Part shown: in pieces, positions 39,001 through 42,000 of the stretch
Position numbering within the stretch: the stretch's first letter is position 1
How the letters are laid out: every line of letters starts with the position of its first letter
Assembly: GCF_056746865.1 (NCBI RefSeq)
Contig: NZ_CM163382.1
Length of the DNA: 64,000 nt
Reading direction: 5' to 3' (one strand)
Made by a program: the position numbers

Positions 39001-42000
39001 TGAGTCTTCTTGCCTGAGTATTAGGACGGTAACCGCGTCGACGAGCTTCAGCTTCCACCCGTGCACGGGTGGAAGCTGACACATCTGCATAGCCTCCAAG
39101 AGCCCGACTGACAGTGGTGACAGAAACTCCGAGTGCAGTGGCAATCGCCTTAAGTGACATATTATCTCCTGCTAATTATTATAGTAGACCGTCCCCCTAA
39201 ATCTCCAGACAACCAATATCACTTATTGTAAGTTAACGGAATCCCTCTGATCTGTAAGATCAGAGGGAAAGGTTATTGATTGTGAGAATAATTTCAGGAC
39301 AAAGTGTAATTAACTCTCCTGGATGGAAAGTGAATCAATGTAGTCAGCGTACCATTGCATCATTTCACGGCGACCATCGAGATACAGGGCATGATTATAG
39401 GTACCCCTGATGGAATTTTTATCCACATGAGCTAACTGCATTTCAATCCAGGCAGAATTAAAGCCCTGTTCGTGCAGAATGGTACTCATGGTGTGACGAA
39501 AACCATGACCGGTTGCCCTGCCATCGTAACCGATACGTTTGAGCACCATATTGATGCTGGCTTCGCTCATTGGCTTGTTGATATCACAACGTCCCGGGAA
39601 AACCAGCCGGTATTGTCCGGAGAAAGTTTTGAGCTGCAGCAGAATGTCAGTGGCCTGTCGTGACAGTGGTACGACATGTTTACGTCGCATTTTCATGCGG
39701 CTTTCAGGGATTGTCCACAGGGCATTATCAAAATCAATTTCTGACCATTCAGCGGACCGTAGTTCAATCGTTCTGAGGCCTGTCAGAAGCAGCAGATTTG
39801 TCGCCATGCGGGTAACAGGACTGCCATGATATTCAGCGAGCTTCCGGAGAAAAACAGGGAGCTCATCTGCTCTCAGGTGGGGGAAATGTGCAGCTTTTGG
39901 CGCCGCCAGCGTACTGGTCAGTTCAGATGCCGGATTGACAGTGGCTCGTCCGGTGGCGATGGCATAACGAAAAATCTGATTACAGTATTGACGCACCTTA
40001 CGAAGTTTTTCCAGCGAGCCACGTTTTTCTATGCGGCGCAGAATTTCCAGCATTTCCAGCGGGAGGATATCAGTAACGCTTCGTTTGCCCAGATACGGGA
40101 AAATATCTTTATCCAGAGCCTCCAGTACGCTTCTGGCGTAACTTTCAGACCATGACAAAGATTTATGCTGATGCCATTCCGTAGCAAGGGCATGGAACGT
40201 ATTGGTGGCAGAGATTTTCTGAGTGAGTTTTTCCTTTCGCTTCTTTTCGCCCGGGTCGCCACCTTCGGAGATAATTTTTCGGGCATCGTCGCGTTTGATT
40301 CTGGCTTCAGCAAGGGAGACGTCGGGATAGACGCCGAGGGCCAGTTTTTTCTCTTTTCCTGCTATCCGGTATTTAAGCCGCCAGTAGCGGGCACCCGTGG
40401 TTTTTACCAGCAGATATAAACCACGTTCGTCAGAGAGTTTATAGTCTTTTTCTTTAGGTCTGGCTGTTTCGACCTGTCTGGCTGTAAGTGCCATATGGGG
40501 GCTCCTGAAACTGACTGAACACAATGAGCCCCCACCGGTGCCCCCAATGAACGCTTGATTGAGAGAGAGTTCAGTAGAGTTCGGTGGAGTTCAGGATGTT
40601 CAGATTGCTTGTAACGATGTGATTATACTTGAGTTTCGTGGAGTTCGGGAGATGAATCTGGAAGTGAAAGTGGTGCCCGGACTCGGAATCGAACCAAGGA
40701 CACGGGGATTTTCAATCCCCTGCTCTACCGACTGAGCTATCCGGGCAACGGGGCGCATTAAACCGTAATCTGCACATCTCGTCAACCTAATTTCAGTAAA
40801 AGCGATTCAACTGCTTAAGATTGCGGCAAATCGCTTCTTTTCTGTGTTTCTGTCAGGTCAGTGCGCCACCCTGGCGGCAGCGAGCGAAGCGCAGGATATC
40901 TTCTGCCAGCCGATGTGCGGTGTCGACATCCGCCTGGCTACGATTCACCAGCATTCGGCTTAAACAGCCTTCCAGCACCAGTTCCATCTGCTTTGCTACC
41001 ATCGCCGGATCGTCAACTTCCAGCGTGGTTAACAGTTCGTGGGTGAAATCGTAGGCCGCGCTTTTTTGCTGATCGGCCAGTTGATGAATAGGGTGGCCAG
41101 GATCGGGATAAAACGTACAGGCAGCGATAAACAGACAGCCCGGATAGCGGTTGTTTTTAACGCACTCCGATAACGCCTGATAACGTGCCAGCAGCTTTTG
41201 TTCGGCGGTTTGCGTTTCGTCCAGCATCAGCTGACGACGCCAGACATCTATCTGTTGGCTAAGATAACGCAGCGCATCGTAGAGGATTGCCTCTTTGTCT
41301 GGCCAGAAACGGCGCAGCTCGTCCAGTGGATAATCCACACGTTCAGCAACCATCTCCAGCGTGGTGTTGGCAATCCCTTGTAATTCTAATAATTTCAGGG
41401 CTTCTCCCAGTACATCTTCACGTTGCACGCTATTTTCCTCCGTCTTTCCCACTGCAAGTGTCGTTCACGGTTGGCGATCGCGCAAATGTGCGCTGAAGGT
41501 TTCAGCATCCATAAAGCCCGTGACGCGTGCTTGTGGATGCTCCTGGCCTTGTCCGTCAAAAAAGAGAATTGTCGGTAGGCCAAGGACATTAAGATGCTTT
41601 AACAGCGCCACATCTTGTGCGTCGTTGGCAGTGACGTTGGCCTGAAGTAATACCGTGTCTGCTAACGCTTTTTGCACCTGCGGGTCGCTGAAGGTGTATT
41701 TCTCAAACTCTTTACAGGCGACGCACCAGTCGGCATAGAGATCTAACATCACCGGTTTGCCTTTGGCTTCAACGAGCGCCTGATTTAACTCATCTACCGT
41801 TTTGATTTGTGTAAAGTTGAGATGCGTCTGAGTTTGCGCGGTATGCGTCGCACCAAATGCCCAATCCTGAAGTGGGCGCACGCTAACTAATGCCGCTGCC
41901 AGCAGGATTATTTGCACCACGCGCATCCAGCCGCGTTTGGCCTGTAGGCTGGTGATAAAGGCCCAGCCAAAGAATGCGACACCAAGCGCCGACCACAAGC

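What the first reader, a model, noticed from the sequence alone, without database searches (positions are those of the whole stretch)
40567..40650. Tandem GAGTTC(A/G)G repeats between int and tRNA-Phe
Three adjacent 10-bp units (AGAGTTCAGT, AGAGTTCGGT, GGAGTTCAGG) and further partial copies lie in the int-tRNA spacer. Their phasing at about one helical turn is typical of integrase arm-type binding sites. They could also be junk left by imprecise recombination.
Basis: seen in the sequence. Interest (0 to 1): 0.35.

Follow-up and report, generated by a model that had tools for sequence, protein, structure and literature searches.

The report
Excisionase-type repeats upstream of island integrase
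The 10-bp tandem repeats between tRNA-Phe (pheU) and the island integrase gene are real and conserved, but they most likely bind the island's small excision helper protein (AlpA/TorI type), while the integrase's arm-binding domain reads nearby GGGGGC heptamers; this is an ordinary part of a known kind of attachment site.

Summary
All four exact GAGTTCRG matches in the 64-kb window lie within 82 bp of the int–pheU spacer (P about 7e-9). There are six boxes in two blocks: four in tandem at 40566-40605 and two at 40630-40649.

The interpretation needs correcting. The spacer is the int-proximal arm (attL) of a ~69-kb pheU island with a P4/IntS-type integrase, and it holds two motif classes.
- **Heptamers:** TGGGGGC occurs twice directly and once inverted, abutting the int ATG. 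A pair also lies near the distal island end. The same layout is annotated as arm repeats in P4 and was shown experimentally for IntS arm-type sites in KplE1 and ICEMlSymR7A.
- **Heptamers track the integrase N-domain:** across 43 relatives the heptamer type follows the integrase N-terminal domain. In one Proteus pair, heptamers and N-domain were exchanged as one cassette while the tandem boxes stayed unchanged.
- **Tandem boxes:** they occur on one arm only, with a 10-bp period, in the same 2+3/4 layout as the five mapped TorI sites of KplE1. They co-vary with the AlpA-family protein, not with the integrase N-domain.

The boxes are therefore most likely binding sites for a recombination directionality factor (RDF) that overlap the int promoter. 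This is a new member of a known kind, of low to moderate interest.

The parts
40671..40746 (-). tRNA-Phe (GAA), the pheU gene; integration target of the island
   Evidence: ARAGORN; RefSeq annotation of the identical record, with dicD, dsbD, cutA and dcuA beyond it
40671..40689 (-). 19-bp att core / direct repeat ATTCCGAGTCCGGGCACCA (3' end of the tRNA)
   Evidence: An identical copy lies about 69 kb away at the far end of the island, next to cadC, in NZ_CP033635.1 (L087:49033-49052). There is no second copy inside the window.
40661..40670 (-). CTTTCACTTC, the island-side 10 nt abutting the core; probable island-side core-type half-site (inferred)
   Evidence: Nearly invariant in 15 pheU/pheV-lineage relatives
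40630..40649 (.). Proximal block of two tandem boxes (TGAGTTTCGT, GGAGTTCGGG; on the int strand CCCGAACTCC, ACGAAACTCA). Proposed RDF sites, positionally equivalent to TorI sites I1 and I2 of KplE1.
   Evidence: Conserved as AACTCC/AAACTC in relatives. KplE1 layout.
40622..40627 (-). Perfect TATAAT on the int strand, between the two box blocks; candidate -10 of Pint with no recognisable -35
   Evidence: Read from the sequence. TAnnnT is kept in 14 of 15 lineage relatives. The consensus scan found no full promoter because the -35 is absent.
40612..40624 (-). AATCACATCGTTA, one mismatch from the IHF consensus WATCAANNNNTTR (tentative)
   Evidence: two such matches in the 176-bp spacer against 0.24 expected. 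Not conserved as an IHF consensus across relatives.
40566..40605 (.). Distal block of four tandem boxes, the core of the finding (AGAGTTCAGT, AGAGTTCGGT, GGAGTTCAGG, ATGTTCAGAT). Proposed RDF sites, positionally equivalent to TorI sites I3-I5.
   Evidence: PWM hits of 13 bits or more occur nowhere else in the 70-kb island. The central box GARCTCCAC is the best conserved.
40554..40560 (-). AATCAAG, strongly conserved element in register with the box array (fifth position); overlaps a second IHF-like match at 40548-40560
40528..40546 (-). Two direct heptamers TGGGGGC (int strand; GCCCCCA on the + strand at 40528-40534 and 40540-40546), 12 bp apart. Proposed integrase arm-type (P') sites.
   Evidence: D4. 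Invariant in relatives. Same position and spacing as the P4 'attP arm sequence repeat' features. Heptamer class follows the Int N-domain.
40496..40502 (-). Inverted heptamer (GCCCCCA on the int strand) abutting the int ATG and overlapping the ribosome-binding region. Proposed third P' arm-type site.
   Evidence: I4, I5. Same arrangement in P4 (3915-3926), KplE1/HK620 and Stenotrophomonas phage S1.
39310..40494 (-). int: 394-aa P4/IntS-type tyrosine integrase with an N-terminal arm-DNA-binding domain
   Evidence: Pfam PF13356, PF22022 and PF00589. Residues 1-86 match PDB 3JU0, 3JTZ and 3RMP, E = 1e-24. About 46% identical to IntS of HK620, Sf6 and KplE1.

Best explanation
The GAGTTCRG repeats are the operator array of the island's recombination directionality factor (RDF). 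The RDF is a small winged-helix protein of the AlpA/Vis/TorI family, and the array lies in the int-proximal arm (attL, P' arm) of a ~69-kb pheU island. Read from the tRNA, the arm holds: the core (tRNA 3' end); two boxes; an AT-rich -10/IHF-like segment; four tandem boxes at 10-bp spacing; two direct TGGGGGC heptamers; and one inverted heptamer abutting the int ATG.

Inferred mechanism, by analogy with KplE1 TorI, lambda Xis, 186 Apl and P4 Vis: RDF monomers load cooperatively, head to tail, on one face of the helix and bend the arm. The bend lets integrase molecules, held by their N-domains on the heptamers, reach the core for excision. Because the array brackets the only good -10 element, occupancy by the RDF, and by integrase on the heptamers, also sets int transcription.

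Shown here: the anatomy, the conservation, the one-arm versus two-arm distribution, and the two covariation patterns. Inferred: which protein binds the boxes, the bending, and the sign of the transcriptional effect.
For: (1) Positional homology with an experimentally mapped system. IntS of KplE1/HK620 is about 46% identical to this integrase over its full length. In KplE1 attL, TorI has five sites in two blocks: two next to the core and three in tandem 2 nt apart, with motifs GTTCG, GTCCG and GATCG. The IntS arm-type sites lie between these and the ATG (PMC2951348; sequence).
(2) P4 carries GenBank 'attP arm sequence repeat' features on TTGGGGGCAT repeats: two direct plus one inverted over the int ATG, and two on the other arm. 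A separate 10-bp-periodic xxxxxGTCC array lies between the core and these repeats. Vis binds P4 attP (PMC2603039).
(3) ICEMlSymR7A has five arm-type motifs TGKTGGTATC, all needed for integration. RdfS binds attL upstream of P3 (PMC11963761).
(4) One arm versus two arms. Boxes scoring 13 bits or more occur only in attL, and none scoring 9 bits or more lies within 150 bp of the distal repeat. By contrast, TGGGGGC with TGGTGGC 12 bp downstream lies 78 bp inside the distal repeat. HK620, Klebsiella phage RCIP0114 and Stenotrophomonas phage S1 show the same pattern.
(5) Int N-domain identity, corrected for the rest of the protein, follows the heptamer class (r = 0.72, permutation p = 0.0005). It follows box similarity only weakly (r = 0.155).
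(6) Natural swap. Proteus L046 and L058 have integrases 96% identical outside the N-domain and 49% identical within it. Their heptamers differ (GGGGTAC vs TTGTATA), while their boxes and AlpA genes are nearly the same.
(7) Box similarity follows AlpA-family protein similarity: r = 0.55, p = 2e-4; partial r = 0.46 given Int. With near-duplicates removed (n = 16), r = 0.33, p = 0.003. Box similarity against the Int N-domain, given the RDF, is null.
(8) The island encodes exactly one AlpA-family protein: PF05930, E = 2e-10; 31% identical to TorI and 36% to Vis.
(9) RDF operators are direct repeats one helical turn apart (PMC7498355). The 10-bp period is family-wide (z = 21).
Against: No binding data exist for this island. 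The AlpA-family gene lies about 51 kb from int, outside the window, and no box cluster was seen upstream of it.

The box core on the int strand (YGAACT) is the reverse complement of the TorI boxes, so the array is flipped relative to KplE1 if the resemblance is meaningful.

The covariation tests rest on 16-43 elements that share ancestry. The AlpA-like genes used were chosen only because they lie near int. Automatic box extraction picked the proximal rather than the distal block in some loci.

The promoter layout differs from KplE1, where the mapped promoter follows the last TorI site.

In the ST131 variant (Int 97% identical), two boxes are mutated at core positions. That could mean relaxed constraint.
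Confidence: 0.62

Rival explanations
1. One reading: the tandem boxes are integrase arm-type sites bound by the N-terminal arm-binding domain, as with lambda P'1-P'3.
For: The integrase has an arm-DNA-binding domain. Lambda P'1-P'3 are also three adjacent direct repeats on the int-proximal arm (established knowledge). The boxes are conserved and lie in the arm.
Against: The boxes are absent from the other arm. They do not follow the N-domain. They are unchanged in the Proteus N-domain/heptamer cassette swap. L055 has window-like boxes (GAACTCCAC, GAACTCTAC) but TGTATAG heptamers and only 42% N-domain identity. In P4, KplE1 and ICEMlSymR7A the arm-type sites are the heptamer-class repeats next to the ATG.
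Confidence: 0.12
2. The boxes are mainly a transcriptional operator or activator site for int, read by the AlpA-like or another island regulator, with little or no architectural role in recombination.
For: The two proximal boxes occupy the -35 region of a -35-less perfect TATAAT, and the four distal boxes lie just downstream of it. RdfS is reported to stimulate intS transcription (PMC11963761). Vis and Int repress P4 Pint (PMC7286903). TorI represses intS through sites I4 and I5.
Against: In every characterised relative, the same sites serve both recombination and regulation. The two-block layout flanking a bend site is typical of intasome architecture. The transcription start has not been mapped here.
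Confidence: 0.15
3. The boxes are sites for a host nucleoid protein (IHF or Fis), or simply intrinsically curved DNA.
For: The 10-bp phasing would give curvature. Two IHF-like matches occur in the spacer. IHF sites are reported in the P4 and PAI I536 int promoters.
Against: Box sequence differs between elements living in the same host: GAACTC, TCAAC, GTTCG and GTCC in E. coli elements. A host factor would not show that. The IHF-like matches lie beside the boxes, not within them.
Confidence: 0.06
4. Non-functional residue of imprecise recombination or replication slippage.
For: Some decay of individual boxes in the ST131 and Ch1 variants.
Against: A family-wide two-block, 10-bp architecture in 40 non-redundant elements from many genera. 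Motif concordance between the two blocks within each element. Conservation in about 500 E. coli genomes.
Confidence: 0.03

Closest known systems
KplE1 (CPS-53) / HK620 attL: TorI sites I1-I5 with IntS arm-type sites P'1-P'4 (Panis et al. 2007, 2010; PMC2951348)
   Same: Homologous integrase (about 46% identity). tRNA then int in the same orientation, with the int promoter inside attL. Two RDF sites next to the core plus three or four in tandem at a 10-bp period. Arm-type sites as two direct plus inverted copies ending at the ATG, and a pair of arm-type sites on the other arm. The box core is related (GTTCG vs GTTCR).
   Different: Target is tRNA-Phe, not tRNA-Arg. Arm-type motif is TGGGGGC, not GGGTAAAA. 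The candidate RDF is an AlpA-family protein only 31% identical to TorI. The boxes lie on the opposite strand relative to int. The best -10 lies between the box blocks rather than after them. The element is a 69-kb genomic island, not a prophage.
Satellite phage P4 attP-int region (Pierson & Kahn 1987 arm repeats; Vis, Cali et al. 2004; Piazzolla et al. 2006)
   Same: Same arm-type motif class (TTGGGGGCAT), with identical arrangement and 12-bp spacing. A 10-bp-periodic array lies between the core and the arm repeats. The RDF is AlpA-family (Vis). Int and Vis both regulate Pint (as reported in PMC7286903).
   Different: The P4 boxes read xxxxxGTCC, not GAACTC. P4 Int is only about 42-53% identical. 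I could not read the Vis footprint paper, so the assignment of the P4 periodic array to Vis is inferred.
ICEMlSymR7A attP: IntS P1-P5 (TGKTGGTATC) and RdfS (PMC11963761)
   Same: P4-family integrase targeting a phe-tRNA. Arm-type sites next to intS. The RDF binds between the core and the int-proximal arm-type sites and controls intS transcription.
   Different: RdfS showed no clear consensus motif, whereas here the boxes are sharply defined. Different host phylum and a different RDF subtype.
Lambda Xis X1-X1.5-X2, 186 Apl and P2 Cox operator arrays
   Same: Direct repeats one helical turn apart, with cooperative filament-like binding and bending (PMC7498355).
   Different: Unrelated integrase subfamilies. 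In lambda the sites lie on the arm distal to int.

Membership tests
Integrase arm-type (P/P') binding sites | Located in the att arms, outside the core | tested here: met
   Boxes lie 22-105 bp from the tRNA 3' end, inside the island
Integrase arm-type (P/P') binding sites | The same motif is present on both arms of attP | tested here: not met
   No box scoring 9 bits or more within 150 bp of the distal repeat. The TGGGGGC heptamers do meet this criterion.
Integrase arm-type (P/P') binding sites | Motif co-varies with the integrase N-terminal arm-binding domain | tested here: not met
   r = 0.155, against 0.72 for the heptamers. Partial r given the RDF is 0.02 and -0.07. The Proteus cassette swap leaves the boxes unchanged.
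Integrase arm-type (P/P') binding sites | Bound by the isolated N-terminal domain | not testable with these tools
   Needs EMSA or footprinting
RDF (Xis/TorI/AlpA/Vis) operator array | Direct repeats spaced about one helical turn apart | tested here: met
   Period 10. Family-wide lag-10 z = 21. Criterion as stated in PMC7498355.
RDF (Xis/TorI/AlpA/Vis) operator array | Confined to one arm, between the core and the arm-type sites | tested here: met
   Same in KplE1/HK620, RCIP0114, S1 and P4.
RDF (Xis/TorI/AlpA/Vis) operator array | The element encodes a cognate RDF | tested here: met
   One AlpA-family gene in the island (L087:30975-31211; PF05930, E = 2e-10; homologous to TorI and Vis). It lies outside the window, and its function is untested.
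RDF (Xis/TorI/AlpA/Vis) operator array | Motif co-varies with the RDF | tested here: met
   Mantel r = 0.55 (p = 2e-4). With n = 16 after removing near-duplicates, r = 0.33 (p = 0.003). Partials given Int are 0.31-0.46. Small sample with shared ancestry.
RDF (Xis/TorI/AlpA/Vis) operator array | Bound and bent by the RDF; required for excision | not testable with these tools
   Needs footprinting and excision assays
Autoregulated tRNA-int modules with the int promoter inside attL ('STI shape', Panis 2010) | tRNA and int in the same orientation, with an intergenic region long enough to hold attL | tested here: met
   176-bp spacer, both genes on the minus strand. Criterion.
Autoregulated tRNA-int modules with the int promoter inside attL ('STI shape', Panis 2010) | The promoter overlaps recombination-protein sites | tested here: inconclusive
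   A perfect, conserved TATAAT lies between the box blocks, but there is no -35 and no mapped start

The most novel reading that the evidence does not exclude
The two proximal boxes replace the missing -35 of a conserved TATAAT. The AlpA-like RDF would then be an obligatory activator of int, and the four downstream boxes, with Int bound on the heptamers, would cap expression. One protein array would thus couple int induction and excision directionality, using TorI-like boxes in flipped orientation. More broadly, the family would be built from two independently exchangeable specificity modules: the N-domain with its heptamers, and the RDF with its boxes. The Proteus cassette swap suggests this.
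Probability: 0.2. Interest if true: 0.45.

Novelty: new member of a known kind. Interest (0 to 1): 0.3.

Why it matters
The result assigns the elements of the attL arm of a widespread E. coli pheU/pheV island family. That family here carries the raffinose genes and, in the matching genome record, a multidrug-resistance region. The tandem boxes are assigned to the excision factor and the GGGGGC heptamers to the integrase arm domain.

This tells experimenters which sites to mutate to lock such islands in place or to mobilise them. It also guards against annotating any 10-bp-phased repeat next to int as an arm-type site. The comparative rule is general for DUF4102/P4-type integrases: heptamers follow the N-domain, and boxes follow the RDF. 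It could be used to predict att architecture automatically. The principle itself is already established for KplE1, P4 and ICEMlSymR7A.

Tried and rejected
- **Distal tRNA repeat inside the window:** none found. It lies about 69 kb away in the matching genome.
- **Sigma-70 promoter and terminator scan of the spacer:** nothing found, because the -35 is absent.
- **Box clusters elsewhere in the island, including upstream of the AlpA-like gene:** none found.
- **Vis-box motif at P4 PLL:** only loose GGAC/GTCC strings, not rigorous.
- **IHF consensus:** two one-mismatch hits in the spacer, but the TTR half is not conserved in relatives, so the assignment stays tentative.
- **RNA structure of the int 5' leader:** z = -2.2, 6 of 200 shuffles fold as well, and the minimum-free-energy fold does not use the heptamer inverted pair. 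Not pursued.
- **Pseudomonas AlpA antiterminator as a model:** rejected as a close analogue. That AlpA is a larger protein with a single 6-bp site between -35 and -10.
- **Szwagierczak et al. 2009 (arm-binding domain structures), Cali 2004 and Piazzolla 2006:** could not be read. Statements about them come from citing papers or from my own knowledge.
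Full report
**Observation**

The stretch 40566-40595 contains three head-to-tail 10-bp units: AGAGTTCAGT, AGAGTTCGGT and GGAGTTCAGG (TRF period 10, 2.9 copies). 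A weaker fourth unit follows at 40596-40605 (ATGTTCAGAT). Two further units lie closer to the tRNA: TGAGTTTCGT at 40630-40639 and GGAGTTCGGG at 40640-40649.

GAGTTCRG has only four exact matches in the whole window, and all four lie here. The Poisson probability of such a cluster is about 7e-9, and none of 300 Markov-1 simulations placed more than one match in any 82-bp span.

**Setting**

tRNA-Phe (40671-40746, minus strand) is pheU. dicD/yjdC, dsbD, cutA and dcuA lie to its right. To its left, on the same strand and transcribed away from the tRNA, lies a 394-aa tyrosine integrase. It has Arm-DNA-bind_3, Phage_int_M and catalytic domains. Its first 86 residues match the solved arm-binding domains 3JU0, 3JTZ and 3RMP (E = 1e-24).

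The window matches E. coli ECCNB12-2 exactly over the 361- and 371-bp stretches around the spacer that were compared, and the gene coordinates agree. In that genome the island runs about 69 kb, from pheU to a second copy of ATTCCGAGTCCGGGCACCA next to cadC. The 176-bp spacer is therefore the int-proximal attachment arm (attL, or P' arm) and also contains the int promoter.

**Two motif classes**

I read the spacer on the int strand and compared it with 80 loci encoding relatives 43-80% identical. Almost every element showed the same order:
- tRNA 3' end;
- two 10-bp boxes;
- a TATAAT-like hexamer;
- three or four tandem boxes carrying the same motif as the first two;
- a conserved AATCAAG-like element;
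- two direct heptamers about 12 bp apart;
- one inverted heptamer abutting the ATG.

In the window the boxes read CYGAACTC and the heptamers read TGGGGGC (40540-40546 and 40528-40534; inverted copy at 40496-40502).

The 125 nt upstream of the heptamers are strongly 10-bp periodic across 40 non-redundant elements (lag 10 z = 21, lag 20 z = 10). Both classes change between lineages, but they change independently of each other.

**Which class is the arm-type site?**

Four lines of evidence point to the heptamers.

1. **Characterised relatives.**
   - P4 carries 'attP arm sequence repeat' features on TTGGGGGCAT. There are two direct copies, one inverted copy over the int ATG, and two copies on the other arm.
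   - In KplE1 and HK620, whose IntS is about 46% identical to this integrase, the IntS arm-type sites are GGGTAAAA-type repeats in the same arrangement. A further pair lies on the other arm.
   - ICEMlSymR7A has five arm-type motifs TGKTGGTATC, all required for integration. That motif class also appears among my loci.
2. **Distribution across the two arms.** In this island, TGGGGGC followed 12 bp later by TGGTGGC lies 78 bp inside the distal repeat. No box scoring 9 bits or more occurs within 150 bp of that repeat. Boxes scoring 13 bits or more are confined to attL.
3. **Covariation with the N-domain.** After removing the effect of identity in the rest of the protein, identity in the N-terminal 90 residues follows shared heptamer class (r = 0.72, permutation p = 0.0005). 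It follows box similarity only weakly (r = 0.155).
4. **A natural experiment in Proteus.** The integrases of P. mirabilis L046 and P. cibi L058 are 96% identical outside the N-domain but only 49% identical within it. The DNA alignment shows a cassette of about 370 bp, consisting of the heptamers plus the first ~100 codons, that has been exchanged (GGGGTAC vs TTGTATA). The tRNA end and the boxes (GTCTCTTGAA…) are more than 90% identical.

**What reads the boxes?**

In KplE1 attL, the RDF TorI has five mapped sites in two blocks. Two lie beside the core and three lie in tandem 2 nt apart, with motifs GTTCG, GTCCG and GATCG. That is the layout found here, and the core sequence is related.

RdfS binds the equivalent interval of ICEMlSymR7A. 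Vis binds P4 attP, where a periodic GTCC array occupies this interval. RDF operators are characteristically direct repeats one helical turn apart.

The island encodes one AlpA-family protein. It matches PF05930 (E = 2e-10) and is 31% identical to TorI and 36% to Vis. It lies outside the window, about 51 kb from int.

Across 21 elements for which an AlpA, TorI or Vis-like gene was available, box similarity followed RDF similarity (r = 0.55, p = 2e-4). The partial correlation given Int was 0.46. Box similarity against the Int N-domain, given the RDF, was null. After removing near-duplicate pairs (n = 16), the RDF signal persisted (r = 0.33, p = 0.003; partial 0.31-0.32) and the N-domain signal did not.

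Host factors are unlikely readers, because box sequences differ among elements that live in E. coli.

**Mechanism**

The anatomy and covariation above are shown. The binding protein and the mechanics that follow are inferred.

The AlpA-like RDF most likely polymerises head to tail on the two box blocks. Possibly with IHF at the AT-rich segment between them (one-mismatch consensus at 40612-40624), it would bend the arm. That bend would let integrase, tethered on the heptamers, engage the core for excision.

The only good -10 element is a perfect TATAAT at 40622-40627 on the minus strand, kept as TAnnnT in 14 of 15 lineage relatives. It lies between the blocks and has no -35. Occupancy of the boxes and heptamers should therefore control int expression. 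Int and RDF are known to control int expression in KplE1, P4, PAI I536 and ICEMlSymR7A. Whether the effect here is activation or repression is unknown.

**Caveats**

- There are no binding data for this island.
- The box core on the int strand (YGAACT) is the reverse complement of the TorI boxes, so the array would be flipped relative to KplE1.
- The promoter position differs from KplE1.
- The covariation samples are small and phylogenetically structured.
- Two boxes carry core mutations in the ST131 variant, whose heptamers are intact.

**Verdict**

The repeats are real, functional-looking components of an attachment-site arm. The repeats themselves are best explained as RDF operators overlapping the int promoter. 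This is a new member of a known kind.

Noticed in passing
L046:2790-3330 vs L058:2790-3330 (Proteus mirabilis ATCC 29906 / P. cibi): A cassette of about 370 bp, comprising the arm-type heptamers and the first ~100 codons of int (the arm-binding domain), has been exchanged between two otherwise 96%-identical integrases. The tandem boxes and the tRNA junction are unchanged. This suggests that the arm domain and its sites move as one module.
   Followed up: partly
window 40496-40546, and the equivalent position in L006-L085: The heptamer class next to the int ATG falls into discrete types across relatives: TGGGGGC/T, TGTATAG, ACGGTAT, GATGGTA and GGGTAAA. Each occurs as two direct copies plus one inverted copy. 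The GATGGTA type matches the published ICEMlSymR7A arm-type consensus TGKTGGTATC.
   Followed up: partly
L002 (E. coli Ch1, NZ_CP127316.1 1002579-1005930): An 89%-identical integrase with the same heptamers and decayed boxes sits next to ynjA with no tRNA. The core-like sequence is altered (GGGTACTACC instead of GGGCACCACT). This may be a secondary integration site or a rearrangement.
   Followed up: no
L087:49053-49408 (beyond the distal repeat, before cadC): A second, decayed attL-like stretch (CTACCGAACTCAACCAGATTCTCC … GCGGGTAT) and an integrase pseudogene fragment. These look like the remnant of an earlier pheU island, with the present island integrated in tandem.
   Followed up: no
window 31569-39160, and L087 (rest of the island): The island cargo next to int is a raffinose cluster: a LacI-type regulator, alpha-galactosidase, an MFS transporter, a GH32 hydrolase and a porin. 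Further in, the matching record carries floR, tet(A), sul2, aph(3'')-Ib and aph(6)-Id, a type I restriction-modification system, and a CP4-type module with alpA, yfjI and cbtA/cbeA.
   Followed up: no
window 40566-40649 vs L086:188-279 (KplE1 attL): The box core on the int strand (CCGAACTC/CTGAACTC) shares the hexamer CGAACT with the reverse complement of the TorI boxes. The arrays therefore appear to be in opposite orientation relative to int and the core.
   Followed up: no
window 40503-40521: The conserved TGTTCA(A/G) between the second direct heptamer and the inverted heptamer has no assigned role. In the window lineage it forms inverted copies of the box core (CTGAAAC, CTGAAC on the + strand).
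   Followed up: no
L005 (ST131 pheU island, Int 97% identical): Two of the four tandem boxes are mutated at core positions (GAAC to AGAC, and GAAC to GAAT), while the heptamers and the -10 element are intact. This may reflect decay of excision competence or a changed RDF.
   Followed up: no
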